From Eledone cirrhosa (taxonomy: Eukaryota): DNA of 64,000 nt. The translations under genes and the position numbers were made by a program. The notes beneath the pieces are model-generated. The model had not been told where the DNA came from. It saw only the letters and a list, made by a program, of their open reading frames with translations, and ran no database searches. Each line of letters opens with the position of its first letter. Within the stretch, counting starts at the first letter, position 1. Positions 1,040 through 64,000 of the stretch are shown in pieces. The stretch is taken from NCBI GenBank assembly GCA_964016885.1, contig OZ024742.1:194432001-194496000 (forward strand). The letters are read 5' to 3'.

Positions 1040-1213
<174 letters not shown>

Positions 1214-1470
1214 ATTAATGCTTTCTTTATTAACCACAAGGGTTTACACAAAGTAGACATTAAGGACAGTACAGGACAATACAGGACGATACAAATGGGC
1301 ATTTCTGCGTGTAAACAAAACAAAAACAGGATGTAATCAAATATAACAATGAAAAATTCCCCCAATAGGGGGGAGACTTCCGAGGGACATTTGTGGAGAA
1401 AGCCCATTAAAAGACCACAGTGTCCCTGACCACCAGGGCAAGTGCCCTCTCCCAGTTTTCCACCTTTAAT

Positions 1471-3792: not shown

Positions 3793-3826
3793 GTTGAAAT
3801 GGAGTGGAAAAGATGGGAAAGACCAT

Positions 3827-5773
3827 TTACCTTACTTCTCGTAGAGGAAGGATGGTTTCTCCATCCCTTTTCACTTGATCGTCTGGTGAAGGGACCGTTG
3901 AATCGTCCCTTCGGCTGGTCGTCGGCTCTTCTGTGAGTATATCGAAATATACTCTCCGATTGAGTGTCCCTCCTAGGTCTCTGAAATCACCAACTGCGTT
4001 AGGGAATTTCCTTTCAATGTTTGTGTATTGCTTCTGTGCTATTCTTACCAGTCTTATGTTCGTTGGTGTTTTGATTGGTGCTGGTATTATGTAGTCGTGC
4101 TGTGAAATGTATGTATGTTCAATTATGTAAGTCATTAGTTTCTTGTTGTGTGTATTTATTGCTGTGCATTTGTTTTTCTGGGGGTGCGGTGTGGGTCTAC
4201 TATTTTCTTGTCGTTGTTGCAGGGTGTGTGTTTTGTTGTTATGTTTGTGATGTTCGTACTTGTGGTGGTGGTGTTGAAGGTGTTGTTGTTGTTTGCGGTG
4301 GGGTTCCCGCCGGTGGTGATGGTGGTGCTAGCGTGAGTGGTGATGCTGTTGGTGGTGTTGCTGCTGTAAGTCTCTTTGCAGTGGCCTTTACCCTTTTTTC
4401 ATTTCGTTCCTCCCTTTTCGAAGGCGACGATGCGCTGCTTCTGCATTTGTGCCTTCTTGCGACCTTTTGCCATCCCTCTCCCACCTCACACTCCATGTCC
4501 GATTCTGTGAGGGCGGGGAGGGGTATACCAGCTCCACTCTTTCACTTGTTGTTGTTGGTGATGTTTGCAGTGGAGTCTCTGTTGCAGCTGCAGTTGGTAT
4601 TACTGTTGTTGTTGTTAATAGTTCCACTGCTGCTGCTGTTCTTGATTTCCGTGGCGTGGGTATGGATGCCACGGATCTATCCTTCCTGGTTGACGCCTCT
4701 CCTGTTGCTGGTAGCAGTGGAGCCAGTTTCGGAAGGAGGGGGGTTTTCTCCTTTCTCAAGGTCTTCTCATTGTAGAAGGCCCTGAGGTGAGTCTTCTATC
4801 CACAGCGAAAGTATTTCGGGCGTTTGCCCTTAACACTTATGGTCAGTTGAGTGCCGTTATCGAAGTATATCACATCCGGGTTAGTTTCGATGCACTCCTG
4901 GTTGGTTTGGATTAACATCTCAATGGATCCAATCTACTCGTACTTTTTTCTGAGGACAGACGCGGCCAGCAAACAAGGGGCCATCCTGGGGGGGGGGGGT
5001 CAGTTTGACCCTCACTATGTTTTGTCCACAATAGGAGGGCACCAACACCATTTCCTCGCTCCTTAGGGTCACTAAGGATTGAGCCTTTGCCTCCTGGGGT
5101 GTGGCAAAAAGCACGTCCACGGTGGCATATTTCTTGCCTCGAATGATATGCGTGTTCTGCTGCCACACAGACCCTAAGGCTTTTTGTATTTGAGCCTCTG
5201 TGGCTCTTTCAACCCTACGGGATTTTGTGCTTACTGTTCGGTACGTGACCGTACAGTGCTGTTGGGTTTCGAAAACTTTTCGGCTGCCTTGCAGATTGCT
5301 CGGTGTCCGGTTTTCGTCACCATCTTCTTTGCTTCCTGTAATTCCTCATTTGTTATAATGATGGTTTCCATGTTCTTTGCGATACCTGCAAACGAGATTG
5401 GTTTTTCTTTGTTGTTGTTGTTATTGTTGTCGTCAGAGCAGCTGTTACTTGTGTTGTTGCTGCTGGTACTACGATTGCCGCTGTTGCTGTGGTTGTTGTC
5501 GTTGTTGTTGTTGTTGCTGCTGCTGCTGTTTTTGTTGCTGTTGCTGCTGCTGCTGTTGTTTTTTATGCTGCTGCTGATGCTGTTGCAGCTGCTACTATTG
5601 TTTTCCTTGTCACTGTTGCTGCTGCTGCTGTTATTACGGCTGCTACTGCTATTATTCACGACCTCAGACGAATGAAATGGCTTTCCGTATTTACCGCACA
5701 CATTTTTCGTAGCCCCATATTTACATACACCCCACACACACACACGCACACACGTACGCACACACACACACAC
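3827..5773 (-). pseudogene. Tx1 copy 1 ORF1 remnant (N/S-rich N-terminus, degenerate zinc knuckle, T/P-rich linker)
   Basis: Fragments 5231-5773, 4920-5168, 4388-4759, 4239-4496, 3827-4135 share motifs with ORF1 of copies 2/3 (e.g. HIIRGKKYATVDV vs HIRRGQKYGTVDV; LVPSYCGQ; KFPNAVGDFR). Confidence 0.8.
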
Positions 5774-20343: not shown

Positions 20344-20409
<66 letters not shown>

Positions 20410-24612: not shown

Positions 24613-24740
24613 GTTGCCAATAATAAACACACGCACCAGTAGCTTTCACTTCAATTTATTATAATAAATTGATAAATTTAGGAATTTATAAATTTCCGTT
24701 TGGTTGGTTGGTTCCACAACCAGATGGTTGTTTATATATT

Positions 24741-24783
24741 GTCAAAGTTCTTTGGTCACACATTCTGTGGCCTCTTCAGTCAC
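24741..24783 (-). ncRNA. Degenerate minimal type-I hammerhead ribozyme in Penelope repeat (right copy)
   Basis: Minus strand gtga CTGAAGA ggccacagaatgtgtgacc AAA gaac tt tgac (G of GAAA lost). Confidence 0.5.
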
Positions 24784-32312: not shown

Positions 32313-37814
<5,502 letters not shown>

Positions 37815-45440: not shown

Positions 45441-45871
45441 GACACTCGTATAAAGTTTGGCGTAGGTGATGCTACTGCCGTGGAAATCCCATATGTGGCT
45501 GGATATTGTTGTAGCATTCTTCCGGACCTCGTTTCTATAGATGTGTTATTGCTGGTAAAATCTTGTGTTAAACTGTAGCAATTCCTTACAGTTCTGATGA
45601 TATATAGTGGATGTGATGATATATAAGGTGGATGTGATGACTTAATTAATTCAAAATATATAATTTCGTTTCGCTTGAATATCATGCAAGAAGATAAGGG
45701 TTTAAACACTCGCTTGAGGGGCTGCTCTCTGAAGACCTTCAGCTCTCTGACACTTCTGAAAGATCCTTACCACCATATGTAATATATATTCAGGTGAATA
45801 TATTTTACCGCGACATATCAGTGGCACCTGATCAAGTTAGGAAATTATTACTGTTATTATTAATATTATAA

Positions 45872-47650
45872 TTGCATTTATCTTGCTTTATGTTCATACG
45901 AGTTATCACCAAGTCACAACCAATGACCTCAAGAGACAACAAGGTCCGCCTGTTCAAGAAAGAATATACATACACACACATGCATCTTTAGGTGTTTAGA
46001 CTTTTGATGTGCTTATATTGACAGAATCTTCCTTAGTATATGGGCAGTTCCCTTTAGTACTGTCTTTTGTATTTCTCCTATACGCGGGTTTCCTGGGATT
46101 TGCGATAAGTAATCATTAGACCCCTTAGGTATCATTTCTAGAGAGCCTACAACCACTGGTATTGTTTTAGTTCTCAATGTCCACATTTTTCCAATTTCTA
46201 TCTCCAGGTCCTTTACTTGCCCAATTTTTCAAATGTTTTTATAGATACATTCTTGTCTATTGGAACGGACATATCAATTAGCAGGCATACCCTCTTTTTA
46301 AAGTCCTTCGGTATTATATCAGGTCTATTTGCATCTATTTTTCGGTCTGTTTGGATGCTAAAGTTACACAAGATTGAGATGTGATATTTTTCAAGTATGA
46401 GAGGTGGTTGATGCTCCCACCAATTCTTTTTATGGGGCAGGTCAAAATGCTTACACATTATCCAATGTATGTATTGTGAAGCTCTGTGTTGCCTGTTTAG
46501 GTATACGGCTGGAGCTAGTGGACTGCACATTGGAATTATATGATCAATGGTCTCTGGTTGTTTTTACATACACGGCATAATGGGCTGCATCGATTCTTTA
46601 TTATATTGGCTTGGTAATTTTTTGTTGGCAGACACTGATCTTGTGCTGATATAATCAGTCCTTCAGTCTACAATTTCAGTCCAGATGATGCCAACCACTG
46701 ATGGGTTAAAGTTTTGTCAACTTCAGGATTGTTAGCTCTTTCTGGGTATTTTCCATACAGAGGATTTTCTTGCCATTTCTTAGCCAGTTTCTGTAGCAGT
46801 TCTTTCTTTTCAGTTATTTTACCTGCTTTGCTTTTTCTGTGTTTTCCATTTCAGCTGTAAATGGGACTTCTGAAATTTGTAGTCCATTACTGTATCTTTG
46901 TGCATCTTTTGTAATGGAGTATGATCGTTTGATGCTTTCATGTTTCAAAACGAGTTTGATCATCCAATCATGTGATTCCCTTAGATATGTAAAAAATCCA
47001 ATTGTTGCAGTTTTCAACGCAATATCTAACTGGATTAACCCACGTCCTCCTTCTTTCCTTGGGAGATATATTCTATTTGTATCTGCCTTAGGGTGATGCA
47101 TTCTGTGCATGGTTAAGAATTTTCTCATTTTTTTATCGAGCCTACAGATCTCTGTGCTTGGCCAGTTGATGACATTGTAACTGTAGGTTACTACTGGTAT
47201 GGCAAGCGTGTTTATGGCATCGCTCCTATTCCTTGCATTCAATTCCGTTCTTAAGTGCTTGATTCCGTCTCCTTCACAAACACCTAGATATTTGTAAATT
47301 TCCTCTTGATCAAGTTCTCTTATCTTATTCCCACGATCAAGATTAATGTCTGAACTCTTCAGCAGCTTTCCTCTGGTGAACTTTGCTTTGGCGCATTTAT
47401 CTAGTCCAAACTCCATTTTAATGTCATCACTGAACTGCTCCACAGTGGATAATAGCCCTTGCAATTGTTCATCATTTGTTGCAAATAGTTTCAGGTCATC
47501 CATGTAGAACAAGTGATTAATGGTTTTGTCATAGACTTTATATCCATGTTTTGTTTCTTTGAGCGTTTTACTTAATGGTATAAGTGCGATGCAGAATAAA
47601 AGCGGTGATAAAGAGTCATCCTGAAAATTTCCACAATTAATATTAAGTGT
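45872..47650 (-). mobile_element. R4/Dong-type RLE non-LTR retrotransposon, family A, 5'-truncated and degenerate
   Basis: GIFQDDSLSPLLF, HLFYMDDLKLF, MEFGLDKC, YKYLG, RIYLPRKEGGRGL, RPDII...CLLIDMSVPID; ATT remnants on both sides. Confidence 0.88.
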
Positions 47651-47652
47651 AA

Positions 47653-47691
<39 letters not shown>

Positions 47692-47693
<2 letters not shown>

Positions 47694-49534
47694 TTTGAAT
47701 CTCAGTCATTGATGTTAGTTAACTGGAAAGTTTGTTGAAATGAATATCAAGCCACTACCTGCAGCCTCAGATATTCAGGACGTATCGGAGAGTTCTTGCC
47801 GTTCCCAGCAAGCATGCCTTTTGAAGTGTTCCAAAAAGCAGGGCGGGGCCAATTTTCTTTAACCATCCCTGGAAACTTTTTGAGATAGTACCTAGTGCGC
47901 CTATGACAATCGGGACCACTTTGACTTCATGGCAGTTCCAAATCCTTTTTACCTCCCACTTTAAGTCCTGGTATCGGTTAATTGTCTCCCTCTCCTTCTC
48001 TTGCACTCTCGTGTCGAATGGGCAGGCCACATCCACAATCAGGCACGATCTTTTTTCCTTGTCCAAAACCACCAGGTCTATTGTTTTCCAGTTTCTTGTC
48101 CGTCTGTATCCTAAAATCCGATAGCACCTTCACCTGATCGTTTTCTATCACCGTCTCTGGCTTATGCTCATATCACTTCTCAGAATGTGGTAAATTGTTT
48201 ACTTTGCATAGGTGCCAGTGGATCACCCTGCCCATCACATCATGTCTCCAGCCTTTATAATGAGTCTGGGCTAGGTGTTTACACTCGTATACAATGTGAG
48301 CCACAGTCTCCTTTTTCTCTCCACAGATAATGCACAGTTGGCTAGCCTCCGCCTTGTAATATGGTGTTTCAGCCACTTCGTTTTGAGTGCCTGCTCTTGC
48401 GCAGCCATTAGCATTCTTCTGTAGCATTTTTAATGTCTCCTCTTCTCAACGAGTTCCATGTCTGTGGATCTCTGAATTCCATTATCTTAAAGAAGGTACT
48501 ATGAAGGGATTTTCATGAAGGTTGCTCTTTCTCCTCGTTGTTATTTCCTCCTTGGACATCTCCTGGTCTATTGTCCTCTCCTTCAGTACAGTTCTGAGCA
48601 TTGGCTCCTTACTATCAGCCACGTATTTGTGTAGGTTGTTTTTCTCCATCTGAACACAGTCCTCTATGCTGATAAGACGTCCTCCACCTTCAGATCTCCT
48701 TAAGTAGAGTCTATCGACATCACTCCTCGTGTGGAACATGTTGTAGATAGTCAATAGCTTCCTAGTCTTCCTATCCATTTCTTTTTGTTCAGCAACATTC
48801 CATCTCAGAATTCCCGCACTGTACAGCTCGGGAATTTACTGCACTTATGGCATTCCTACTGTTCAGATGTGACTTTAATACGCTCCTTTCTCTCCGAATG
48901 TATTCAGTTCTTATCAATTGCTTCATTTGTTTGTTCTTGATGTCATCAGCCTCCAGAACGCCCAAATACTTGTATCCTTCTTCAGAGTCAATTTCCTTTA
49001 TCATCTCACCTGTTGGTAACTGGATTCCGTTACTTCTGCTCAACTTACGCCTCTTCATCACAATGACTCCACACTTACTAATACCAAATTGCATACATAT
49101 ATCATTGCTGAAAATACGGACAGTGTCAACAAGCACATCCAACTCCTTCTCACTCTTCCCGAAGATCGTCCATGAAGAGGAGATGATTGATGGTAAGCCC
49201 TCCCTTTCCCAACCTGTATCCTGCTCTCACTTGCCCGGCCAATTTTTGTTCATCTAATTTAAATAGACCAATCTCGTTCCAGATGTTATGCATCCGTTTC
49301 CTATAGCCTTTCTCCTTGGGATTACTCTTCAGGTAACATTGCATAACAGTTCTATTCAATTCTTTCGTCCAGTTGGTTCTGGTCCCTTTCTTTCTTCTTA
49401 TTCCTACGACACCAGCAGTATTTGGTTGACAGCCAGGTCCCTGCTGCTGAGCCAGGGAGCACCTGTTGGGTGAGAGTCTGTCACATGACATTCTAGTCTC
49501 CATTTCACCGTTATTCGAACTGTTTAGGTTCGAC

Positions 49535-49536
<2 letters not shown>
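47692..49536 (-). mobile_element. R4/Dong-type retrotransposon, family B copy 1 (internally deleted)
   Basis: Collinear with and highly similar to 55059-58547 but lacking ~1.6 kb (LAGQ|VRAGY junction); flanked by (ATT)n at 47652-47692 and 49538-49568. Confidence 0.92.
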
Positions 49537-49568
<32 letters not shown>

Positions 49569-49736
49569 GGTTGGTGAAGCTACGCTTCTTATCGCCTCCA
49601 GTCTTTTTCAACGTTTTACCTCTTTCTCAACCGTTCGAAACCTTTTATTCAAGTTTTAAATTTGATAAAAGTTTAGAAGAAGTGACCTACCTAATACAGG
49701 GGTTCACTAGTAAATAATACGGCACCCCTTTACGGG

Positions 49737-51432
49737 GTGTCGTATTCGTATTTTTGTAAAAAGAGAGAGAGCGCTGTCAGACAACACAGAGAGAGGGAGA
49801 CTTTATCAGCATGTCAACAAGACAGCGTTCCAGCGGATGTAAATATAAACGAAAATATTACAAAGGAAAAAATGATTGTTCCAGATTTAAAATTAAGAAA
49901 TATTTCTAACACAAACAACACCAACAATAACACCCACAACATCACCAACGACAACACCAAAAATAACAACGGTAAAGTCGAGAACGACAATAACAAAAAT
50001 AACAGTGGTAAGGTCAAGAACGACAATAACAAAAATAACAGCGGTAAGGTCGAGAACGACAATAACAATGACAATAACAACAGCCACAACAACAATAATA
50101 GTAGGAACAGTATCAACAAAAACAACAATAATAACAACAGCCACAATAACAGTAACAGCAGCAACAGTATCAACGAAAACAACGCCAACAACTGTACCAG
50201 CGAAAACAACAACAATGACACCGATACCTGTAATAGCGAACTCAGCACCACCAGTAAGACCAGTAGCGGCAGCAATAGTGGTGCTGCTGAAAAAGGGACC
50301 ACTTCTTTTGCAGGTGTCGCCCGAAATATCGAGACAGTGTTAGTCACAGAGGAGGAGATGGCAGTCGCAAGGGCCATGGTGACAAGAAGCGCAAATAGAG
50401 TTTCCCTGAAACCTCCACCCGATTTGTTCAAGGATCAGCATCTACGAACGGTGACTTACCGCACCGTAAACAAAATCTCACATCGAGTGGAGAGAGCCAG
50501 GAATGTATCGAGGCTATCCCCGATATCATAGACTTTGAGGAAGGACTCCAACTCCCTATAAGTGTAGAAGGAAGACGGCCAAAATGTTATCTCTGTGGGT
50601 CGAAAGGTCACCTCAGGGCCTTTTGCCCACAGAAGACACCGAAGAGGGCCCCTCTCCTTCCAATACCTGGTCCGCTGCTACCAAGAGCAGGACAGGCAAC
50701 AAACGATGATGCCCCTTCCACGGTGAGTAGGAGGGCAACGTCCGTAGCACCCGTACCAAGGCCACGGATAACTAAAGCAGCATCATCAGTAGCGGCAACA
50801 CCAATAGCTACATTTGAAATAGCTACACCAGCAACAACATTGCCGAAGAGTGCTCCACTACCACCACCAACAGCCGTGGGGCACATACCACTCCCAGACG
50901 CCACAGAATCCGACATGGAGGCGGGAGTGACGTGGCAAACAGTCTGCCACAAAAAACAAAAAACAAAAGAAACCTTAGATTCACCCTCCAAAAGCGAAGG
51001 CATACAAAGAGGGGTAAAGGCAGCAAGGAAACTTGCAGCAACACCACCACAAATACCAACAACGCAAACACAAGACACACACACCAAACAGCAACAAGAA
51101 GAAAACGGCAACAAAATCACCGCTCCCCCCAAAAAGTACACAGCCATAAACATAGCAAAAAAAGAACTATAAAATATATAAAGCAGCACACAGACATCAC
51201 GGAAAAAAATTACTACACCCCACCAACACCAAGAACTGTCCCGACAAATATAAGCATCATCGAAATATCATTAGAACAATACAAACCTTTAAAACAAAAA
51301 TTCCCCAACGCAGTTGGAGACTTCAGAGGGACGGTTACCAAGAGGATATACACTGACATCCTCTTGGAAACACCCATGACCAGCGAAAGGGACGGTTCTA
51401 CTGTCCCTTCACCACACGAACAAGGTAAGTGA
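49737..51432 (+). pseudogene. Tx1 copy 2 ORF1 (CCHC zinc-knuckle nucleic-acid-binding protein), disrupted
   Basis: Fragments 49737-50531, 50723-51172, 50932-51432; CX2CX4HX4C at ~50586-50627; true start codon uncertain. Confidence 0.78.
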
Positions 51433-51464
51433 CCCTTTCTCATTTGCCCCGTTTCTCATCCAAC

Positions 51465-54400
51465 ATGGCTGTACTCAGAATAGGCAGTATAAATGCACGT
51501 GGCCTGGTGTCATCTTGGAAGCAGGGTCACCTGCTCAATGACCTCAGGTCACTAAACATAGATGTGGTGGCCATCAGTAAAACCAGAATCTCCGAGGCCC
51601 GGGCCTTCGCACCGATCTTCGGCGGCTACGATGTATACGCATCTCCCAGCCGTCCAGGATCGGGGGAGGGGTTGCCGTCCTTTTTCGGAGAGGCTTGGAT
51701 CTCGCGATACGAGCCATTTTCCTGGACCCAGAAGTTAAGTCGCTGGTGCTGGACGTGACCGGCAGCGAAGGCAATGCTTTCAGGCTAGTAGCCGTCTACG
51801 CCCCAAGTGGGGCAGGACGGTCAGATTTCTTCAGACGTCTAGAGACTTTTCTTGGAACGTCCCGCGCTTTAGTGTTAGTGGGCGACTGGAACGGTATCTT
51901 GTATGAACGCTGGGATTGTGTGGGGCTAGTGGATAGGGGAGGAGGGTGCAAGAGCCTCACCAACCTGCTCAGACGTTTAGAACTGTCTGACAAGTATCGA
52001 CTGGATCACCCGAATGTGCCAATGTGGACATGGACAAACCGCATCGGGTCATCCAGATCGTATCTAGATAGGGTATTCTGCAGGGAACTAAATAAGGCTA
52101 GTATAAGTTGTCCACAATTTAAAATAGTCGACTACACAGACCACAAATTTGTGATCTGTGAGATCGACATAGACAGACTTCATAGACAAGGGCCTGGTTA
52201 CTGGAAGCTGAACGCGTCTTTCCCGGTGCGCAAGACCTACAGAGATCGGATTAGCGTATTAGTTAAGCGGGCGTTGACGGGAGCGGTTGTCAACAACAGG
52301 TGGTGGTTCGCCCTGAAAAGGGCAATTAAAGTAGAGTCGATTAGGTTTAGCAAAGCAGTAGTGATAGAGTAAAATAGAGTAGAGGGAGAGCTAGTCAGAA
52401 AGCTAGAACAGGCGTTTAGGACAGGCATCGCAACCGACGTGCTTGCGGCGAGATTGGCACTCGATCAATTCTTCAACGCAAAACACGAAGGCTGCGTTGT
52501 CAGAGCTAGAGCGCGTGCTCTGAAACACGAGGAGACAAAAGCCGTCCAATGGGCCCCGGTGGCAGAGGCGCGACGTAGCAATAAAGCCACAATTCGGTCT
52601 TTGTCTGACCATAACGGGTGGGTGATGCTCGAACCCTAGCGGATGTGTGAAGTTTTTCAGCAGCACTTTGCTGAACTGTTCGGGAGCGGCGGCGGCCCGG
52701 ATCGGGACATGGACTTCAGTGCATACCTCGACGGACTGCCTCGGCTCTCGACGACCGCAGCACAGTGTTGCGAAAAGCCAATAACAGCCGGTGAAATACC
52801 GGAAGCGATGGCTAACTCCACAAGAGGTAAATCGCCAGGTTTAGATGGTCTGCCCTACCAGCTTGATGCATTTATGCCAGACTTGTTCGGTGACCTCTTG
52901 GCAGACGTCTACTGCAACTGGCAGCAGAACGGAAGAATCCCAGTTTTGTGAGCCGGGGAGCAGTGGCACTGCTGAGAAAAGACCCGAACAAGGGGGATGT
53001 TATTGATAATTTCAGGCCCATAACTCTGCTAAACGCAGATTTCAAGATTTTGGCCATGGTGTTAGCTACGATGTTGGCGCTTGTCGTCAAGGGTCTGGTG
53101 GGAGAGGTGCAGACATGCGCCATCCCAGACAGATCCATACACGACAACCTCCACCTCATGCGATACATCATAGAGAGGGTGCTTTAGGAACCTGGCAAGG
53201 GTGCGGCCCTGATCAACTTGGATCAATCCAAAGCATTCGATAGGGTCGACCATCGGTACCTGGCGGCGGTCCTCGAGGCAGCCGGTTTCGGGCCTGTTTT
53301 CAGGCGTTGGATCGCAGCAATGTACAGCGACATCTGCTCAGTTGTGAGGGTGAACGGTCACCTGTCGCAGCCGTTCAGCATCATGCGCTCAGTCCGCCAG
53401 CGTTGTCCCCACTCGTCCCTCTTGTACGTATTGGCTCTCGAGCCGTTACTGCACAAACTGAGGGCGATGAGGGGCGTCCTACGCGAACTAGGATGCGGGA
53501 AATCCGAGTCGGCTTACGCTGACGATGTCACCGTGGTGGTCTCGAGCACCAGACACGTCCAGATGCTCAGCACCGCTCTCAAGGAATACGAAACGGTGAC
53601 AGGAGCAAAGATAAACCAGGAAAAGTCGGTGGGCTTGCAGCTAGGCATCTGGAGATGCAAGTCCATGCCGTCCGACAGCGTCGTAGGGCGTTGGACGGAC
53701 GGACCGGTTAAATTGCTCGGGGTTTGGTTCTGACCAGACCTCCAGATGGAGAAAAACTGGAACGCGGTGACGAGCAGGGTGGCCTCCCTCACCCAGAAAT
53801 GGGCTGAGAGGAAGCTGTCCCTGAAAGGCCGGGCGGAAGTGGCGAATGCGTACATCTCATCCGTCATCTGCTACCGCCTCACCGTCGTCCCTTGCTCCAG
53901 CCCAACTCTCACCAAAATGGAGCACCTCCTCTTCCGCTTTTTGTGGAAGGGACGCGCTCCCATGGTCAGACGATCCATCTGCTGTCAACACCCGTTGCGT
54001 GGAGAACTGGGCACGCCATGGCTGATGATGCGCAAACATGCGCTGAGGCTGCGACATCTCTGGTGCTTCCTTGATGGTGAACGGGTGTGGTCGCTCTCTG
54101 CCCTCTCCCAGTTGGGCACCAGTATCGGTGGAACATCCACCTCGGCGTTCTATAGAGGACTAGTGGAGGGGAAGAGCGACGACGTTCTCGGAGAGATCCT
54201 GGGCGTCAAAGAAGATCAGCTGCTTGCTCTCTTCCGGAGAACTTTCAGCCCTTAGCCTATGGATAACTTCCAAAAATCCCTGGCCTGGCAGTGCTACCGG
54301 GGAGCGCTGCCGGTTCGAGATAAGCTCTACAGGCACGGAAGTGCCGTCAGCCGAGCCTGTCCGAGATGCGCGTATAGCGACGAAACCGTTGTGCACGCAC

Positions 54401-54789
54401 TCGTTCAGTGCCCGAGCATTGCTGGCTTGTGGAGCTATGTCGAACAGTTGCTGTCACGTGTGGGACTGATCCGGTTGTAGACTGAATCCATTGTGCAGAT
54501 GGTCTTGCCGTCTTCCTTTGAGGAGGAAGGGCAAGCGGTTTTCATCTGCCTGGTGGCCATGGCGAAAGAGATTGTGTGGTGCACAAGGTTAAAAGGGTTA
54601 AAGACAAACACTTTCCTCTTCGGCGAATGCCTGATTAACTTTTTCAAGTTTCACCTGAAGAGGACACTCAGGGTGGAGAGGCGAATGCTGCTTTCTAGCA
54701 AGTTTGTTGAAAGGTGGGTGAATGTTGCGAGAATATACGTCTGTAGTTTGAGAGATGGAAAAATTGAGAGAGGGCGCTTGCCCTGGTAG
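51465..54789 (+). pseudogene. Tx1 copy 2 ORF2 (APE-RT-zinc finger) with several stops and frameshifts
   Basis: MAVLRIGSINARGL, VAVYAP, VGDWN, SYLDRVF, TDHK, KSPGLDGL, YADD, KLLGV. Confidence 0.9.
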
Positions 54790-55058
54790 TGGTCTTTTGA
54801 GTGGTTTTCGACACGAGTAACCCTCGGAGGTTTCCCCCCTATTGGGGAATTTTTCATTGTTTCAATTTTCATTTTATTGTTTATATATATATATGTTTTA
54901 TGTCTTTTTTCTTTCCTTATATAAATAATAAAAATATTTACACACACAAAACCCACATCGTACCGTCCTGTTCCGTCTGTGATGTTTTTATTAATGTCAG
55001 CCCTTGTGGCCAATAAAGAAATCATTATTATTATTATTATTATTATTATTGTTGTTAT

Positions 55059-58000
55059 TCCTTGAATCTCAGTCATTGATGTTGGTTAACTGGAAAGTCC
55101 GTTGGAATGAATATCAAGCCACTACCTGCAGCCTCAGATATTCAGGACGTATCGGAGGGTTCTTGCTATTCCAAGCAAGCATGCCTTTTGAAGCGTTCCA
55201 AAAAGCGTGAAGGGGCCGATTTTCTTTAACCATCCCTGGAAACTTTTGGAGATAGTCTCCAGTGCGCCTATGACAATCGGGATCACTTTGACTTCATGGC
55301 AGTTCCAAATCCTTTTCACCTCCCACTTTAGGTTCTGGTATCGGTTAATTTTCTCCCTCTCCTTCTCTTGCACTCTCGTGTCGAACGGGCAGGCCACATC
55401 CACAATCAGACACGATCTTTTTTCTTTGTCCACAACCACCAGGTCAGGTCTATTGTATTCCAGTTTTTTGTCCGTCTGTATCCTAAAATCCCACAGCACC
55501 TTCACCTGATTGTTCTCCATCACCGCCTCCGGCCTATGCTCATACCATTTCTCAGAATGTGGTAAATTGTTTACTTTGCACAGGTGCCAGTGGATCACCC
55601 TGCCCATCACATCGTGTCTCCAGCCCTTATAGTGGGTCTGGGCTAGGTGTTTACACTCGGACACAATGTGAGCCACAGTCTCCTCTCTCTCTCCACAGAT
55701 CCTGCACAGTGGGCTAGCCTCCTCCTTGTAAATATGGTGCTTCAACCACTTCGTTTTGAGGGCCTGCTCCTGCGCAGCCATTATCATTCCTTCTGTAGAC
55801 TTTTTGAGGTCTCCTCTTCTCAACCAGTTCCATGTCTGTGGATCTCTAAATTCAGTTTTCTCAAAGAAGGTACTATGAAGGGATTTTCCCTTAAGGCTGC
55901 TCTTCCTCCTTGATGTTATTTCCTCCTTGGACATCCCCTGGCCTACTGTCCCCTCCTTCAGTACAGTTTTGAGCATTGGCTCCTTACTATAGGTCACGTA
56001 TTTGTATAGGTTGTTTTTCTCCATCTGAACACAGTCCTCTATGCTGATAAGACCTCTTCCACCCTCAGATCTCCTTAGGTAGAGTCTATCGACATCACTC
56101 CTCTTGTGGAACATGTTGTAGATAGTCAATAGCTTCCTAGTCTTCCTATCCATTTCTTTTTGTTCAGCAACATTCCATCTCAGAATTCCCGCACTGTACC
56201 TAATAATAGACACAGCTCGGGAATTTACTGCGCTTATGGCATTTCTGCTGTTCAGATGTGACTTCAATACGCTCCTTACTCTCCGAATGTATTCAGTTCT
56301 TAACAATTCCTTCATTTTTTTGTTCTTTATGCCATCAGCCTCCAGAACGCCCAAATACTTGTATCCTTCCTCAGAGTCAATTTCCTTTATCATCTCACCT
56401 GTTGGTATCTGGATCCCGCTACTTCTGCTCAACCTACCCCTCCTCATCACAATGACTCCACATTTACCAATACCAAACTGCATACATATATCACTGCTGA
56501 AAATACGGACAGTGTCAACAAGCACATCCAACTCCTTCTCACTTTTCCCGAAGAGCTTAAGATCGTCCATGAAGAGGAGGTGATTGATGGTAAGCTCTCC
56601 CCTTGCCAACTTGTATCCTGCTCTCACTTTTCGCAGCATAATGGTCAAGGGCATTAGGGCAAGGACAAACAACAGAGGGGACAGGCTATCTCCCTGGAAG
56701 ATAGCTCTCTTGATCTTCACGCTTCCCAAGGATACTCCAGTTGATGTCAACTCTGTCTCCCAGGACCCCATACTCCTGCCCAGCAACTGTCTGATGTTAT
56801 CTGCCACCCTGAAGATCTCCAGGCTTTTGGTGATCCAAGAATGAGGCACCATGTCAAATGCCTTTCTGTAGTCTATCCATCCCATGGCAAGATCAGTGTG
56901 TCTCCTCCTGCAATTCCCCATTACCATCTTATCAATAAGTAACTGGTCCTTTGTACCACGTGACTTCTTTCGGCATCCTTTCTGTTCGTCCGGTAACAAG
57001 TTGTTTGTGCGGAGGTGATGGTAGATTTCCTCAGACACAATGCTCGTCAACAGTTTCCACATTACGGACAGACATGTGATAGGTCTATAGTTGGTAACAT
57101 CATTACCCTTGATTCGGTCTTTCATTATCAGAACTGTGGTACCTTTTGTCAACCACTCTGGCACCTCACCCGACACCAAGCAGTCATTGAACATGGCCGT
57201 CAGCTTCGGGTGGAGGGATGTTAAATGTTTAATCCAATACCCCTGCACACCATCTGGGCCGGGTGATTTCCAGTTGGTTAGTTTTTTGGCCTGCCCCTTA
57301 AGAGTTTCAACTGTGATACTCAAATCAGTTTGTTGTTGTGCCTGCTCACCGAACTCCCTCTGTACTGTCTCAATCCACCCTGCCTGGGCATTATGTCTAA
57401 CATCCTGCTCCCATATTCCTCTCCAGAATGTTTTAGTTTGTTCCGCCCCAGGGATCAAGTCGTTGCCTCTTTCTTTCCCCTCAAGCTGTCCAAACAGCAT
57501 CTTCTGGTTGTTGTCGAACATGCGGTTCTGTTTATACTGACTGACTCTGTTCTCGTATCGCCTGATTTTGGCACTCTTTGCTACAATGCGTTGCTTCAAT
57601 TCCTCTATGATAATATTTAGCTTTTTACTCCTAGTTTTGTATTTTATTTCCAGTCTATTTTTAGTGCCTATGTTTTTTAGTGTCCCATTCAGTAGTGACT
57701 CAAGCTTTCCTATGTAATTTCTCATTTCCCCGATTTGCCCACTCAGTCGCTTCTTCCACCACGTCTCTGCTCTTTCTTGTCTGTTGTTTCCTCTCGCTTT
57801 TATACCAAGTAGTTTCCTCACCGTATTTGCTGTTGCTTTGAGGATATTGTTGCACTGGTGAAGGCTCCTCGCCTCAAGGTATGGGATGACTTTGTTTACC
57901 TTAGCTGTTGTTTCTTTTAACTTTTTCCTGTCTACAAGTCTTAGGTTCATAGGTCTCCCACTATCATTGTTCAATTCATCTACCACTAAATTTAGGATGT

Positions 58001-58547
58001 CAACCGAATCTTGTCCTAGCCCGTCAGCATTCATCTCCTCAGTGGCCGTATCTCTGTTCCAGGTATTATTTATCTCAGTATTCAGATCATTGTCTGCTTC
58101 GGGTGGTTCCTCCGTTCTCAGGACCTCTTCACCTTCATTTCCCACTGGCTCGCTTGTCTGGCATACTACACCCGCCATCTCCAAGCCATTCTCTCTGCTC
58201 AGTTCCTCCAGTTCCAGCTCGCTTATCCACCCATTAGTTCTTATTACCCGAGCCTGCCCGGCCAATTTTTGTTCAACCAATCTCGTTCCAGATGTTATGC
58301 ATCCGTCTCCTGTAGCCCCTCTCCTTGGGGTTACTTTTCAGGTAGCATTGCATAACAGTTCTATTCAATTCTTTCGTCCAGTTGGTTCTGGTCCCTTTCC
58401 TTCTTCTTCTTCCTCCAACATCAGCAGTATTTGGTTGACAGTCAGCTTCCTGCTGCTGAGCCAGGGGGCACCTGTTGGGTGAGAGTCTGTCACATGACGT
58501 TCTAGTCTCCATTTCACCGTTATTCGAACTGTTTATGTTCGATATTT
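55059..58547 (-). mobile_element. R4/Dong-type retrotransposon, family B copy 2 (near complete; 5' UTR may extend to the (ATT)n at 59190)
   Basis: 3' end followed by (AAT)n on the element strand; contains the 1048-aa ORF and the upstream N-terminal fragment 58273-58512. Confidence 0.93.
55134..58280 (-). CDS. Reverse transcriptase + CCHC + restriction-like (PD-D/ExK) endonuclease, R4/Dong clade; N-terminus cut off by a 14-bp deletion
   Basis: 1048 aa open: WKSPGPDG, NYRPITCL, WIDYRKAFD, IFQGDSLSPLLF, LFMDDLKL, YKYLG, CRICGEREETVAHIVSEC, RHD, RPDLVV...IVDVACPFD...KEREKINRY. Confidence 0.93.
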   Translation of the reverse strand: MVEQKLAGQARVIRTNGWISELELEELSRENGLEMAGVVCQTSEPVGNEGEEVLRTEEPPEADNDLNTEINNTWNRDTATEEMNADGLGQDSVDILNLVVDELNNDSGRPMNLRLVDRKKLKETTAKVNKVIPYLEARSLHQCNNILKATANTVRKLLGIKARGNNRQERAETWWKKRLSGQIGEMRNYIGKLESLLNGTLKNIGTKNRLEIKYKTRSKKLNIIIEELKQRIVAKSAKIRRYENRVSQYKQNRMFDNNQKMLFGQLEGKERGNDLIPGAEQTKTFWRGIWEQDVRHNAQAGWIETVQREFGEQAQQQTDLSITVETLKGQAKKLTNWKSPGPDGVQGYWIKHLTSLHPKLTAMFNDCLVSGEVPEWLTKGTTVLIMKDRIKGNDVTNYRPITCLSVMWKLLTSIVSEEIYHHLRTNNLLPDEQKGCRKKSRGTKDQLLIDKMVMGNCRRRHTDLAMGWIDYRKAFDMVPHSWITKSLEIFRVADNIRQLLGRSMGSWETELTSTGVSLGSVKIKRAIFQGDSLSPLLFVLALMPLTIMLRKVRAGYKLARGELTINHLLFMDDLKLFGKSEKELDVLVDTVRIFSSDICMQFGIGKCGVIVMRRGRLSRSSGIQIPTGEMIKEIDSEEGYKYLGVLEADGIKNKKMKELLRTEYIRRVRSVLKSHLNSRNAISAVNSRAVSIIRYSAGILRWNVAEQKEMDRKTRKLLTIYNMFHKRSDVDRLYLRRSEGGRGLISIEDCVQMEKNNLYKYVTYSKEPMLKTVLKEGTVGQGMSKEEITSRRKSSLKGKSLHSTFFEKTEFRDPQTWNWLRRGDLKKSTEGMIMAAQEQALKTKWLKHHIYKEEASPLCRICGEREETVAHIVSECKHLAQTHYKGWRHDVMGRVIHWHLCKVNNLPHSEKWYEHRPEAVMENNQVKVLWDFRIQTDKKLEYNRPDLVVVDKEKRSCLIVDVACPFDTRVQEKEREKINRYQNLKWEVKRIWNCHEVKVIPIVIGALETISKSFQGWLKKIGPFTLFGTLQKACLLGIARTLRYVLNI

Positions 58548-59189
58548 AAACACTCTTATCGAGGATTGGCGAATGTATGGTTACATAGCCATCTGTGGAT
58601 CCGCCATCCCACTTGCCCCTTGTGTGGCATTATCACCTCGCTGTATACGAACACACATAAACAAACTAACACACAGGCAGAAAGGGCCCCAAAAATGAAT
58701 AAGCATAAGTTTCATTGTAATGTAGTGTTCGAATGTCTGACTTAGTTTTTGTTTTTTAAGTTTTAGTTTTTTCCCCCTCTTCTCTGTCCGTCCGCCTGCT
58801 TCTCTCTTCATTCTTATTTTCTTTACGTTTTGGGGGTTTCTTTTTTTGTTTTTGTTTTTCTCTGTTTGTTTTTCTCGTTTTTGCTGTTGTTGCTGTGCTG
58901 CTTTGGTTTTGTTGTTTGTTTTTTCTTTTTTCTTTTGAGTCTATCTATATATTTTGATGCCTTCCTCTTTGTTAGTAGTAGGAATTCTATAATGTGGAAG
59001 TAGCAGCCAGCAGGGAGAAGTGGGATACTGGCGGCGGTAGCGATACTGAGACAGTGGTGGTGGTGATGTCGATACCGAGGCAGTGGTGGCGGTGATGTGA
59101 CCGTATTACTGTAGTGATGGTGCTGTAGCGGTGGCAGCAGTGAAGGAGTGAAGGGGTGGTGGCGGCGGTGATGGGTAGTGGCGGCGGTG

Positions 59190-59238
<49 letters not shown>

Positions 59239-59239
<1 letters not shown>

Positions 59240-59423
59240 TGCGCTTTCTCCACAAATGTCCCTCCGAAGTCTCCCCCCTATTGGGGAATTTTTCATTGTT
59301 ATTTTTTTCTTACATCCTCTGTTTTTGTTTTTTACTCTTAGAAATACCCATTTGTACCGTCCTGTATTGTCCTGCACTGTCCTTAATGTCTACTTTATGT
59401 AAACCCTTGTGGTTAATAAATAA
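59239..59423 (+). mobile_element. Tx1 3'-UTR-only insertion (severely 5'-truncated), close to the copy 1 UTR
   Basis: gctttctccacaaatgtccctccgaagtctcccccctattgggg...aaacccttgtggttaataaa matches the reverse complement of ~1225-1405; (ATT)n on both sides (59190-59238, 59424-59480). Confidence 0.9.
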
Positions 59424-59480
<57 letters not shown>

Positions 59481-62400
59481 GGCGACCTACGTAGTAAATC
59501 TTATCATCGTGAGCTCCGCAAATGTTTGTTATTTTCAGTTGTTTAAAATTTTCATTTATGGAAAATCTTTTATTGTTAACTGTATATAAGTGCACATATA
59601 TTGTTATCTGAAAAGGACACCCAAAAAGATTGGGGCCTTGAACCCAAAATTTAAACTTTTATAATTATCAAACAAAAATTTTTCTTTGTAAAATCATGGA
59701 CGACTCAGAGTCACTCCTTCCTCACAAACTAACACCTCACACCGATACCACCATTGTAAATATTACTACGTTTCCCAACACTAAAAATATAAGCAGTAGC
59801 AATATTTTAAATTTGTCTCAGGCAGACATGCATTTCCCGCCATTACCAATGACTGCATATGTTAAAGCCGCCACCACCACCACCACCACCACCACCGCGA
59901 CAACAGAAACGAAAGAAAAAAATAAATTAACTCGTGATTATCGAAATGAATTCAACCAAAATGAACACCACACCGAACACCACTGACGCCACCACCACCA
60001 CAACTGAAACTAAAATTAATAATAACAAAAATAACGATAACAACAGCAGCAACAATGACATTAAGAAAACCACCCTGAGTTTTGCCAGAGTAGCAAAACA
60101 GTGCGATGCATTTCAGGTAACTCAGGAGGAATTAGAAGAAGCAAAAAAAAAAGTAAAGAAAGATGGGTACAGGGTCAGCCCCCCCCCCCCCCCCCACTCC
60201 ACACCTAATAAGATGGAGCATCGGCGCCTATGCACCGTGTCTTATCGAACAATTAAAAATCGCGCCGAGTGGAATGGGCATCGGAGTCCCAAATCCCAAA
60301 AGCTTTGGGACATGTGTGGGCAAAAAAAACCCACATCAGACGTGGGCAGAAATATGGAACCGTGGACGTGTTCTTTGAAACACCACAGGAGGATAGAGAA
60401 CACTCCATGGCCCAATTAAGAAGTGACGACTTCATACTCGTCCCAAGCTATTGTGGCCAGAGACTCGTAAAGATCAGGGTGACCCACGTTCCACCGGCCA
60501 TCGACATTCCCTGGCTAATAGATGCCGTCCTCGCCGGCATCGAAGCCAACACCAGGAGAATCGAAATAGCGAAAGAAAAGCAGTAGAACTGGTCCGGATC
60601 TGGGATGGAGCTCCTGATCCAAGCGGACCAAAAAAGCATTGAGGAGATCCCAGAGGTAATAGACCTCACTGACGGCAGCCACCTCACCGTGATCGTCGAG
60701 GGCAGAAGGCCTAGGTGTGTCGTTTGTGGTGAAGGAACCCACCTAATGGCTTTCTGCCCTCAAGCTAAAAGGTTGAGGCCACCTCTCTTACCCACTCCAG
60801 TGACTCAACCAACAACACCACCAGCAGCAGAGATGGCAGCAACAACTGTAGCAGCAACAACAGAAACAACTGTAACAGCAACAACCCCAGCAACAGTAGC
60901 AAAATCAACACCACCACCACCCAACGCGCCAGAACTAGCACCAGCGCCTACCCCATCCACCACGCCACAACCAAAACCAACGCCTGTGGAGGATTTTCCA
61001 CTCCCCGGCCTCTCACAACTGGAGACAGATTGTGACGACGAGGAGTGGGAAACGGTATCAGGAAAAAAGAAAAAAAGAATCCAAAAAAGAAAAACATTCT
61101 CTTCACCCCCCCCCCCCTCCATAAACAAAATACAGAGGGAAACAAATAAATTATCAAACAAAAAAGTTAGGACAGATATGCCACCATCCACACGAGCATC
61201 ACCAACACCATCACCATCATTAACCCTAACACCACCGTCACCAACACCACAAAAGTCACCAAAAAGCGAAACAGAAACAAACCCACAACAAACGCAAACA
61301 AAACAAAACAACCAAAACGATACACACTACACAGCATTAAATTTGAACAACAACCAATTATTACACTAAAGCCAACACAACACCAGCATCACAGAAAATG
61401 ACTACACAACAACCCAAAAATTCACACCACCTCCACACATACAAATCAGTCGCATCACACAGAAAACGTAAACGACACTAAAACAAAAATTCCGCAAAGA
61501 CATCGGAGACTTCCGACAAACACTCTCCAGGAGGATTTATAAGGACATCCTACTGGAGGAGGCCACAAGCAGTGAAAAGGATGGAGAAACCATCCTTCCT
61601 CAACGAGAAGTAAGGTAAGTGGTATTTCCCATCTGTTCCACTCCATTTCAACATGACATGACTCAGAATAGGCAGCATAAATGCGCGTGGCTTGGGGTCG
61701 TCATGGAAGCAGGGCCACCTACTCAACGACCTCAGGTCAGTAAACATAAATGTAGTGGCCATCAGCGAGACCAGAATCTCCGAAGCACGGGCCATCTTCC
61801 TGGACCCAGAAGGTAAGTTGGTGGTGCTAGACGTGACCAGCGGATACGGGCAAGCTTTCAAGCTAGTGGCCGTCTATGCCCCGACAGGAGCAGGGCGGCC
61901 TGATTTCTTCCGGCGTCTGGAGACCGTTCTTGGAACGTCCCGCTCCTTAGTATTAGTGGGCGACTGGAACGGGATCTTAGATGCACGCTGGGACTGTGTG
62001 GGATCAGCGGGGGGAGGAGGGTGCAAGAGCCTCACCGACCTGTTCAGGCGTTTTGAACTGTCTGGCAGGTACCGATTGAATTTCCCGAATGTGCCAATGT
62101 GGACTTGGACAAATCGCATAGGGTCATCCAGATCATATTTAGATGGAGTATTCTGTAGGGAAATAGATAGGTCTAGCATAGGCTGTCCACAATTCAAGAT
62201 AGTCAGCTGCACGGACCACAAATTCGTGATCTGTGTGCTTGATTTAGATATGCTTCATAGTGAGTACCCGGCTACTGGAAGCTAAACGCGTCCTTACCAG
62301 CGCGCAAGGCCTACAGAGACCTGATTGGCGAACTAGTTAAGCGGGCGTTGACTGGAGCCATCGTTAACAACAAGTGGTGGTTTGCTCTGAAAAGAGAAAC

Positions 62401-64000
62401 TAGAATAGAGTCCATTAGGTTTAGTAATGAGGGGACGAAAGCCGTTCAATTGGCCCCAGTGGCGGCGGCGCGTCATGGCAACAAGTTCCAGTCTTTGGTG
62501 GACTACGACGGGCGCATGCTACTCGATCCCGGGCAAATGTGTGAAGCTTTTCAGCGACACTTCGCACAGCTGTTCGGGGGGAGCGGCGGGCCGGATCGAG
62601 GGATGGACTTTAGTGTCTACCTCGACGGACTGCCGCGGCTCTCGGCCACTGAGGCGGAGTGTTGCGAAAAGCCGATAACAGCCGCTGAAGTACGGGAGGC
62701 AATGACTGGCTGCACAAGGGGTAAATCGCCTGGTTTGGATGGTCTGTCCTATGAACTTTACATACAGATTCCAGACTTGTTCGGAGGCCTCTTGGCGGAC
62801 GTCTACTGCAACTGGCAACAGACCGGAGAATTCCCAGCTCTGTGAGCCGAGGAGCTGTGGCGCTGCTGAGAAAGGATCCGAACAAGGGGGTTAACATAGA
62901 TAATTTCAGGCCCATAGCTCTGCTAAACACAGAGTTGAAGATTTCGGCCAAGGTGCTAGCAATGAGGTTGGCGCTTGTCGTTGGTGGTCTGGTGGGAGAG
63001 GCGCAGATATGCACCATTCCCGACAGATCCATCCGCAACATCCTGCACCTCATGCGATACATCGTAGAGAGGGTAGCTAGGGAACCTGGAACTGGTGGGT
63101 CCTTGATCAATTTAGATCAGTCGAAAGCTTTCGATAGGGTCGACCATCGTTACCTAGCGGCAGTCCTGAGGGCGGCTGGCTTTGGGCCCGTCTTCAAAGG
63201 CTGGATCGTTGCCATGCACAGCGACATCTGCTCTGTGGTGATAGTGAACGGTCACCTTTCGGAACCGTTCAACATCATGCGCTCGGTCCGCCAAGGATGT
63301 CCCCTCTCGTCCCTCTTGTACGTATTGACTCTTGAGCCATTACTGCACAAACTGGAGACGTTGAGTGGGGTCCCGCGCGAACTAGGATGCGGAAGATCCG
63401 TGTCAGCATATGCGGACGATGTCATCGCAGTGGTGTCGTACGTCAAACACATCGAGGCGATCGGCACTACACTAAGAGAATACGAAGCGGTGACAGGAGC
63501 AATGACCAACCAGGAAAAGTCAGTGGGCCTGCAGCGCGGCACCTGGAGAGGCTGGTCCATGCCGTCCAACAGCGTCGTCGGGCGCTTGACGGACGGGACG
63601 AGGACAATAACTGGGACGAGGTGACGAGGAGGGTGGCTTCTCTCACCCAGAAATGGGCGGAGAGGAAGCGATACCTGAAAGGTCAAGCGGAGGTGGCTAA
63701 TGCGTATATCGCGTCAGTCATCTACTACCGCCTTACCGTCGTACCTGATCCTAAGCCCCCCCCCCCCCCTGACTGCGCTGGAGCGTTTGCTCTTCCGCTT
63801 TTTGTGGAAGGGACGCGCTCCGATGGTCAGGCGGTCCATCTGCTGTCAACACCCGCTACGTAGAGAGCTGGGCATGCCGTGGCTGATGATGCGCAGACAC
63901 GCGCTCAGGCTACAACATCCCCACCTCTTCCTCGACGGGGATCAGGTGTGGTCTCCGTTTGCTAGACACGAATTTCCCCAGCTCGTCTCATTGACCGAGC
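59481..64000 (+). mobile_element. Tx1/L1-clade non-LTR retrotransposon, copy 3 (runs off the window end)
   Basis: Begins GG directly after (ATT)n; ORF1 from ~59696 with CVVCGEGTHLMAFC knuckle; ORF2 from ~61652 with APE and RT (NFRPIALLN, LDQSKAFDRV, RQGCPLS, YADD); internal deletions and frameshifts. Confidence 0.93.

What the first reader, a model, noticed from the sequence alone, without database searches (positions are those of the whole stretch)
45845..64000. ~18-kb train of two unrelated retrotransposon clades threaded on one (ATT/AAT)n microsatellite with strand-partitioned orientation
Seen: DongA(-) | (ATT)n 47652-47692 | DongB1(-) | (ATT)n 49538-49568 | Tx1 copy 2(+) | (ATT)n 55024-55059 | DongB2(-) plus upstream region | (ATT)n 59190-59238 | Tx1 UTR(+) | (ATT)n 59424-59480 | Tx1 copy 3(+). 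Six elements lie end to end and none interrupts another. All RLE elements read (AAT)n at their 3' end; all these Tx1 elements read (ATT)n, as does the separate copy 1 at 1220. Known: Dong (R4 clade) targets TAA repeats, and some Tx1-clade families target microsatellites (Kibi TC, Koshi TTC). Inference: an APE-type Tx1 family has converged on the Dong target from the opposite strand, and each insertion regenerates target on both sides, giving a self-extending landing pad shared by two clades. I do not know of a described ATT-specific Tx1 sharing sites with Dong, but cannot verify novelty.
Basis: partly seen in the sequence, partly recalled or inferred. Interest (0 to 1): 0.82.

Follow-up and report, generated by a model that had tools for sequence, protein, structure and literature searches.

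The report
Two retrotransposon clades share ATT repeats
In this octopus-like genome two unrelated kinds of jumping gene sit end to end in the same ATT repeats, almost always facing opposite ways, likely because each cuts a different strand and leaves more repeat behind, which would make most of these repeats insertion scars and landing pads.

Summary
The train is real and longer than reported: about 24 kb, ending about 6.2 kb beyond the window. It is one case of a genome-wide pattern. L1/Tx1-group elements (APE-RT) read (ATT)n at both ends. RLE elements of Dong/R4 type read (AAT)n. At (ATT)n runs, Tx1 is sense in 290 of 294 flanks and Dong antisense in 280 of 286 (biased set). Of 30 long ATT runs taken in genome order, 22 touch these elements and 9 join the two clades; none has the wrong polarity. 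A sister Tx1 family has 0 of 25 ATT flanks.

Refinements: the 'upstream region' is DongB's own 5' UTR. The Tx1 target looks like a short ATTAT motif with a ~15-bp duplication rather than an array, and ATT is also a tail: only 6 of 18 truncated copies have a clear upstream array. An abundant tRNA-type SINE shares the 3' end, polarity and ATTAT duplications and is likely Tx1-mobilised. Each ingredient has precedent (Dong/TAA, Kibi/Koshi, TRAS/SART, SINEU). I found no report of an ATT-targeting Tx1 or of shared Tx1-Dong trains, but could not search Repbase. Verdict: new variant of a known kind.

The parts
45844..45871 (.). Degenerate ATT-rich left boundary. The 11-mer at 45859-45869 recurs right after the SINE at the far right end (L091:6209-6219), a possible target duplication of the founding insertion
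   Evidence: inference, and weak because the context is AT-rich
45872..47646 (-). DongA, 5'-truncated RLE retrotransposon (RT C-terminal part to 3' UTR), 3.3% from its nearest held relative
47654..47692 (+). (ATT)13 spacer, Dong head to Dong tail
47692..49539 (-). DongB1, 5'-truncated at the ORF start, ~1.6-kb internal deletion at 49232, 3.4% from nearest held relative
49539..49568 (+). (ATT)10 spacer, Dong head to Tx1 head
49569..55023 (+). TxA, full-length but frameshifted L1/Tx1-group LINE (ORF1 with zinc knuckle; APE, RT, CCHC), 2.6% from nearest held relative
55024..55059 (+). (ATT)9 plus GTTGTTATT (the AAC variant of the DongB tail), Tx1 tail to Dong tail
55057..59189 (-). DongB2: open frame 55134-58337 (1067 aa, RT-CCHC-RLE) with a frameshift near the N-terminus, plus its own 5' UTR 58549-59189, 5'-truncated; 0.5% from nearest held relative
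59190..59237 (+). (ATT)16 spacer
59238..59423 (+). 5'-truncated Tx1 3'-UTR fragment with ATT on both sides
59424..59480 (+). (ATT)19 spacer, Tx1 tail to Tx1 head
59481..64000 (+). TxB, full-length 5' end, broken ORFs, ends at L091:~950; 78-82% identical to TxA in ORF2; 3.9% from nearest held relative
1220..5720 (-). Separate Tx1 copy 1, deleted internally, with a 3' ATT/AGT array at 1043-1219; not part of the train

Best explanation
L1/Tx1-group LINEs and Dong/R4-type elements lie end to end in (ATT/AAT)n repeats in nearly fixed opposite directions, likely because each nicks a different strand of the same repeat for target-primed reverse transcription and leaves repeat on both sides for the next insertion. 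Shown: ATT flanks at both ends, polarity, genome-wide trains, elements of different families and divergences within one train, family-specific targets. Inferred from TPRT geometry (established knowledge): the Tx1 APE nicks the AAT strand and its RNA, probably ending in AUU repeats, pairs with the freed ...ATAAT-3' primer. A second nick about 15 nt away duplicates the target. The Dong RLE does the mirror image on the ATT strand. Inferred: tails plus duplications plus slippage lengthen the repeat at every junction, so the pad renews itself. An abundant SINE with a Tx1-like 3' end likely uses the Tx1 machinery and adds or seeds pads.
For: Tx1 3' ends with (ATT)>=3: 29 of 30 and 27 of 30 (two searches); DongB 3' ends with (AAT)>=3: 30 of 30; DongA 27 of 30; chance 0.25% (each set includes the window's own copy). 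Full-length Tx1 5' ends: ATT upstream in 60 of 60 by eye, >=4 perfect units in 50 of 60. Genome-wide, 2,351 exact matches to TTATTATTATT plus the TxB head; 72 of the first 78 head-only matches on C1 are ATT-preceded. 5'-truncated Dong copies have AAT upstream in 11 of 12 (B) and 11 of 19 (A) junctions, so that repeat is not just the RNA's 5' end. Polarity 290:4 and 280:6 in 415 held runs (biased, duplicates); 0 wrong among the first 30 C1 runs. 35 of 99 gaps between long ATT runs are <=7 kb against 2.65 expected. All seven C1 clusters fetched are mixed or pure trains with the same polarity. Sister Tx1 family: 0 of 25 ATT, it sits at TATAT in a CT-rich minisatellite. SINE: duplications in 35 of 51 copies, median 16 nt, nearly all starting ATTA(T); its 3' end aligns to TxA (1 of 3000 random 30-mers as good) and not to Dong.
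Against: Only 6 of 18 5'-truncated Tx1 copies have a clear upstream array (by eye; one is the window's own, two are neighbours). About 6 have short or degenerate ATT, 2 look 5'-inverted and 3-4 have none. An older Tx1 family has (ATT)>=3 in only 9 of 25 3' flanks. Why full-length copies are nearly always array-flanked while truncated ones are not is unexplained. 8 of 19 DongA 5' junctions lack AAT (some are internal deletions). No nuclease was assayed, no empty orthologous site was seen, and no long read spans the window junctions. SINE similarity to TxB and TxD is weaker (0.6% and 1.1% of random 30-mers), and RTE, CR1 and L2 3' ends were not compared.
Confidence: 0.8

Rival explanations
1. 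The Tx1 families have no strong nuclease specificity. Their RNA carries ATT repeats at the 3' end, and for full-length transcripts also at the 5' end (transcription starting in the upstream array). RNA-primer pairing and 5' annealing would then select and build ATT sites. Dong, a known TAA specialist, colonises the resulting arrays.
For: Long 3' ATT runs without upstream ATT in L268, L288, L281, L282. Strong contrast between full-length (50 of 60 with >=4 perfect units) and truncated copies (6 of 18). The SINE nearly always ends in AATTAT (41 of 51) yet sits in arrays in only 2 of 51.
Against: Duplications starting ATTAT at non-array sites (L270, L271, L280, L460) show the site motif pre-existed. 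Full-length 5' junctions are in a fixed phase (ATT then G) across at least six different 5' heads. The rival still yields the same polarity and trains; it differs only in what picks the site.
Confidence: 0.3
2. Trains arise after insertion, by unequal recombination or tandem duplication between ATT arrays, and not by successive targeted insertions.
For: Some trains hold near-identical neighbours with similar spacers (C1 22.035 Mb). DongB2 and DongB3 are 97% identical. Two small rearranged DongB fragments lie in L091.
Against: The window's members belong to four families (TxA/TxB 78-82%; DongA/DongB 34-55% amino-acid identity), have different truncation points, and lie 0.5-3.9% from their nearest held relatives elsewhere. 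Recombination would not by itself give opposite polarity for the two clades.
Confidence: 0.07
3. Assembly mis-joins at microsatellites create apparent trains.
For: No long read or contig spans the window's internal junctions.
Against: Spacers are only 27-60 bp. Thousands of junctions have a fixed phase and polarity. Raw reads from two other individuals carry Dong-ATT-Dong joints (for example 47052 to 45844 with ATTATT between; 77 and 64 reads, but one start each). Contigs of the probable source sample run from the unique left flank to 45883.
Confidence: 0.03

Closest known systems
Dong (R4 clade; B. mori Dong, DongAg, snail DongBg)
   Same: Single RT-CCHC-RLE ORF, (TAA/AAT)n at both ends. TAA targeting, including in a mollusc, is in PMC3812793 (passages). 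Dong-R4 is known as abundant in octopus (PMC13282606, PMC8967140, PMC9115989; passages).
   Different: Here it shares its pads with APE elements. It has a ~1.1-1.4-kb 5' UTR whose first ~660 nt are 85-90% identical between two families with 34-55% protein identity. My rough HDV descriptor found no ribozyme, whereas B. mori Dong has one at its 5' end (PMC3774820, passages).
Microsatellite-targeting Tx1 families: Kibi (TC)n, Koshi (TTC)n, crocodilian (TTCC)n/(TTTC)n families
   Same: APE-RT-CCHC ORF2 plus zinc-knuckle ORF1, with the repeat on both sides (PMC4494074 section 15 and passages; PMC3812793 passages).
   Different: Target is ATT/ATTAT. The host is an octopod-like mollusc (closest named relative Argonauta hians, 73%). 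Relationship to Kibi/Koshi not tested.
TRAS1 and SART1 in silkworm (TTAGG)n
   Same: Two families insert into one tandem repeat in opposite directions; a short 10-12-bp motif suffices; TRAS1 nicks at a T-A step (PMC7265360, passages).
   Different: Both are APE elements of one clade (recalled: R1) and are confined to telomeric repeats. Here an APE and an RLE clade share thousands of dispersed microsatellites.
R1/R2/R4 in 28S rDNA (recalled, no call)
   Same: APE and RLE elements exploit the same repeated locus.
   Different: They use distinct sites in a gene, not the two strands of one 3-bp unit, and do not regenerate each other's target.
SINEU with Tx1-Mar (crocodilians)
   Same: A SINE assigned to Tx1 machinery by shared target (PMC4494074, passages).
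   Different: Here the SINE is tRNA-type, very abundant (83 hits in 600 kb), shares a ~25-nt 3' end and uses short ATTAT sites.

Membership tests
Tx1 clade (L1 group) | ORF1 with zinc knuckle plus ORF2 APE-RT-CCHC | tested here: met
   Intact natural copy: 713-aa ORF1 with a CCHC knuckle and ~1140-aa ORF2; Pfam APE and RT
Tx1 clade (L1 group) | RT closer to L1 group than to other clades | tested here: met
   Best solved structure is human L1 ORF2p, E 1e-52, against R2 at 1e-21
Tx1 clade (L1 group) | Groups with reference Tx1 elements (Tx1L, Kibi, Koshi, Keno) in an RT tree | tested here: inconclusive
   No reference set was available. The only named full-length hit is 'Transposon TX1 149 kDa protein' (Stylophora), E 1e-87. 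The tree has no L1 or named Tx1 references beyond that hit.
Tx1 clade (L1 group) | Target-sequence preference in >20% of flanks (criterion of PMC4494074) | tested here: met
   29 of 30 3' ends and 60 of 60 full-length 5' ends
Tx1 clade (L1 group) | Endonuclease itself sets the specificity | not testable with these tools
   Needs a cleavage assay or domain swap
Dong / R4 clade | Single ORF, RT then CCHC then PD..D-K RLE, no N-terminal zinc finger | tested here: met
   Read by eye in the 1141-aa DongB3 frame and in DongA; best solved relative is R2, E 6e-30. That R4 lacks N-terminal fingers is recalled.
Dong / R4 clade | (TAA)n on both sides | tested here: met
   3': 30 of 30 (B), 27 of 30 (A). 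5' of truncated copies: 11 of 12 (B), 11 of 19 (A)
Dong / R4 clade | Groups with R4/Dong/Rex6 rather than HERO or NeSL in an RT tree | not tested
   No named references among the 120 homologs listed or in the Atlas
Dong / R4 clade | 5' HDV-like ribozyme (shown for B. mori Dong and R4; not a clade-defining trait) | tested here: inconclusive
   A home-made descriptor gave 0 hits in three 5' regions, with no positive control. Rfam gave no ribozyme hit.
Tx1-mobilised SINE | 3' end shared with the LINE, same target and duplication signature | tested here: inconclusive
   3' similarity to TxA (1 of 3000 random), ATTAT duplications of median 16 nt, polarity 77:7. Other LINE clades' 3' ends were not compared; ARAGORN finds no tRNA in one SINE-rich locus, so 'tRNA-type' rests on A/B-box-like motifs read by eye.

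The most novel reading that the evidence does not exclude
Most long (ATT)n microsatellites of this 3-Gb genome are made and renewed by retrotransposition. A Tx1 radiation and its SINE cut short ATTAT sites and lay down ATT tails that seed arrays. Dong elements colonise them from the other strand, and the three build thousands of polarised trains in which families also swap 5' heads. The dominant octopus SINE would then be a Tx1 client, and sister Tx1 families with different targets in one genome would map the residues that set APE specificity.
Probability: 0.4. Interest if true: 0.7.

Novelty: new variant of a known kind. Interest (0 to 1): 0.5.

Why it matters
It gives a concrete, testable source for TE hotspots and for a whole class of microsatellites in a large cephalopod-type genome: 22 of 30 long ATT runs taken in order are element junctions. 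It points to a likely partner LINE for a SINE that covers about 1.8% of 600 kb sampled. It offers intact, closely related APE endonucleases with different targets (ATT arrays versus TATAT in a CT-rich minisatellite), a natural series for asking how APE specificity evolves. It also warns that ATT microsatellite markers in such genomes often have repeat-derived flanks. It is not a new kind of biology: each ingredient has precedent.

Tried and rejected
Mis-assembly and pure tandem duplication: see rivals. 'Upstream region is a third element': rejected, it is joined to the DongB ORF in many copies. 'Dong head derives from a Tx1 5' UTR': only short low-complexity matches. HDV ribozyme in the Dong head: no hit, fold z about +0.9; inconclusive. 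Flanks of relatives in other species: the look-up tool for encoding contigs was closed. A metagenome scan gave 80 loci, mostly 21-45% identical; the 55 whose ends I printed showed no (ATT)n array and are too distant to inform. The DongB 5' search returned only 3 candidates because common words are skipped. Empty-site test: in 20 full-length Tx1 copies with both ends fetched, the 3' end was found in 17 and usually abutted another element, so no pre-insertion site could be read. RAD reads do not cover the flanks well. The tree of Tx1 families resolves the TxA+TxB+TxD group (0.98) but not the order of target change (supports 0.17-0.49). Atlas searches gave only generic names. Our-findings look-ups were empty. 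Literature: nine searches ran; one search was swamped by place names. None listed an ATT-targeting Tx1 or Tx1-Dong shared arrays. Kojima and Fujiwara 2004 and Xiong and Eickbush 1993 are not held. The target labels in Fig. 3 and the supplements of PMC4494074 could not be seen, and Repbase could not be searched; any of these may already list an (ATT)n Tx1.
Full report
Observation. The five ATT runs are at the stated places. Aligned to full-length natural copies from the same genome, the window holds DongA(-) 45872-47646, DongB1(-) 47692-49539, TxA(+) 49569-55023, DongB2(-) 55057-59189, a Tx1 3'-UTR fragment(+) 59238-59423 and TxB(+) from 59481. The window is G000:C3:194432001-194496000 of a 3.0-Gb assembly. 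The next 10 kb (L091) finish TxB and add two small DongB fragments, a full-length DongB3 with an open 1141-aa frame and a 56-nt SINE fragment, about 24.3 kb in all. The closest named relative of the Tx1 RT is from Argonauta hians (73%), so the host is octopod-like.

What the elements are. An intact Tx copy has a 713-aa ORF1 with a CCHC knuckle and an APE-RT-CCHC ORF2. Its best solved relative is L1 ORF2p and its only named full-length homolog is a 'Transposon TX1' protein. The Dong elements have one ORF, RT-CCHC-RLE (read by eye), with R2 as best solved relative. No tree with Repbase references could be made, so 'Tx1' and 'Dong/R4' are well-supported working labels rather than tested placements.

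Flanks genome-wide. Queries excluded the repeat. 3' ends with at least three repeat units: TxA 29 of 30, TxB/D-type 27 of 30 (ATT); DongB 30 of 30, DongA 27 of 30 (AAT); chance 0.25%. Each set includes the window's own copy and is the top 30 of 40 scored hits. Full-length Tx1 5' ends: 60 of 60 have ATT upstream by eye, 50 of 60 have four or more perfect units. The genome has 2,351 exact matches to TTATTATTATT plus the TxB head, and 72 of the first 78 head-only matches on C1 are ATT-preceded. Truncated Dong copies have AAT upstream at 11 of 12 (B) and 11 of 19 (A) junctions visible within the loci.

Controls. A sister Tx1 family (62-78% amino-acid identity) has 0 of 25 ATT flanks and sits at TATAT in a CT-rich minisatellite. 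An older family has ATTAT-starting flanks but arrays in only 9 of 25. The genome has 25,431 ends of long ATT runs. Of the first 30 on C1, 22 touch a Tx1, Dong or SINE and 9 have Tx1 on one side and Dong on the other; none has the wrong polarity. Of 16 runs in 60 arbitrarily placed 10-kb stretches, 11 touch one, with one wrong-way SINE. Among the first 100 runs, 35 of 99 gaps are <=7 kb against 2.65 expected. All seven clusters I fetched are trains with the same polarity, up to about 25 kb. Over all 415 held runs (biased, with duplicates) polarity is 290:4 for Tx1, 280:6 for Dong and 77:7 for the SINE.

Results against the simple reading. Among 30 hits to a short Tx1 3' query, 18 are truncated within the locus. 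By eye 6 have a clear upstream array, about 6 a short or degenerate ATT stretch (three with visible ATTAT-starting duplications), 2 look 5'-inverted and 3-4 have no ATT upstream, two of them despite long 3' ATT runs. An old copy shows a 15-bp non-array duplication starting ATTAT (L460). So ATT is both tail and target, and the recognised unit is probably short. The contrast between full-length and truncated copies is unexplained; RNA that starts in the upstream array is one candidate.

A third rider. A ~180-nt SINE gave 83 hits in 600 kb. Of 51 copies with an intact 3' end, 41 continue AATTAT, 35 show a duplication (10-25 nt, median 16, nearly all starting ATTA), and only 2 lie in arrays. Its last 30 nt align to the TxA end better than all but 1 of 3000 random 30-mers, more weakly to TxB and TxD, and not to Dong. 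It is often the neighbour of Tx1 ends. I infer Tx1 mobilisation (about 60%); other LINE clades were not compared. In the window's train an 11-mer at 45859-45869 recurs right after the SINE at the far end. If that is the founding duplication, the empty site had no perfect array. This is weak evidence in an AT-rich context.

Mechanism. By TPRT geometry (established knowledge), an element reading (ATT)n is primed from a nick in the AAT strand and one reading (AAT)n from a nick in the ATT strand. Polarity follows from strand choice and tail-primer pairing and needs no cooperation between clades. Each event leaves repeat on both sides. Members differ in family, truncation point and distance to nearest held relatives (0.5-3.9%), which fits successive independent insertions. 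Reads from two other individuals carry Dong-ATT-Dong joints, but nothing spans the window's junctions and no empty allele was seen.

Comparison with what is known. Dong targets TAA, also in a snail; Kibi and Koshi target TC and TTC (PMC3812793, passages; PMC4494074, passages and section 15). Crocodilian Tx1 families target (TTCC)n/(TTTC)n and Tx1-Mar likely mobilises SINEU (PMC4494074). TRAS1 and SART1 insert into one repeat in opposite directions (PMC7265360, passages). B. mori Dong has a 5' ribozyme (PMC3774820, passages). Cephalopod repeat papers list Dong-R4 and L1-Tx1 as abundant and recently active; the passages my term look-ups returned say nothing on their targets (PMC13282606, PMC8967140, PMC9115989, PMC10294476). 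PMC4640811, PMC3747384, PMC4758252, PMC3531059, PMC4824008 and PMC6007223 (passages) named no partner LINE for an octopus SINE and no ATT Tx1. Nine searches found no ATT-targeting Tx1 or shared Tx1-Dong arrays. Repbase, Kojima and Fujiwara 2004, and the figure labels and supplements of PMC4494074 were out of reach and could hold such a family.

Verdict. Real, genome-wide, and a new variant of known microsatellite targeting. The new parts are the ATT target for Tx1, the strand-split sharing between an APE and an RLE clade at thousands of dispersed sites, and the likely SINE link. Interest 0.5.

Noticed in passing
L258, L252, L257, L091 (5' ends of full-length Dong copies): DongA and DongB share a ~660-nt 5' head at 85-90% identity although their proteins are only 34-55% identical, which suggests a promoter or 5'-UTR swap. 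The DongA 5' UTR also carries a fixed SINE fragment.
   Followed up: partly
L397-L421, L447-L454: A high-copy sister Tx1 family inserts at TATAT inside a CT-rich minisatellite-like repeat in most of 25 copies; it has intact or near-intact ORF2 copies.
   Followed up: partly
L005, L006, L012, L017, L390: At least five further Tx1 5' heads follow ATT runs, all starting with G, so the ATT-using radiation has several families; TxB and TxD share ORF2 but differ in 5' UTR and ORF1.
   Followed up: partly
window 1043-1219; L009, L026, L041, L056, L103, L377: ATT arrays next to elements often grade into (AGT)n or (CTT)n runs; one TxA tail is ATT followed by about 36 CTT units. These could be mutated tails or targets of further families.
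   Followed up: no
window 33060-34210 (-): PIF1-type helicase fragments (Pfam PF05970, PF21530), probably a Helitron remnant.
   Followed up: no
window 20405-21327 and 24590-25527; L091 7429-8209: A ~0.9-kb repeat at 94% identity flanks 21-24.6 kb, and a ~190-bp element recurs at least seven times in the window.
   Followed up: no
L091 998-1193 (+ strand, just past the window): A tiny DongB piece joins its extreme 3' end to a 150-nt part of its 5' UTR, between two ATT runs; an aborted or template-switched insertion.
   Followed up: no
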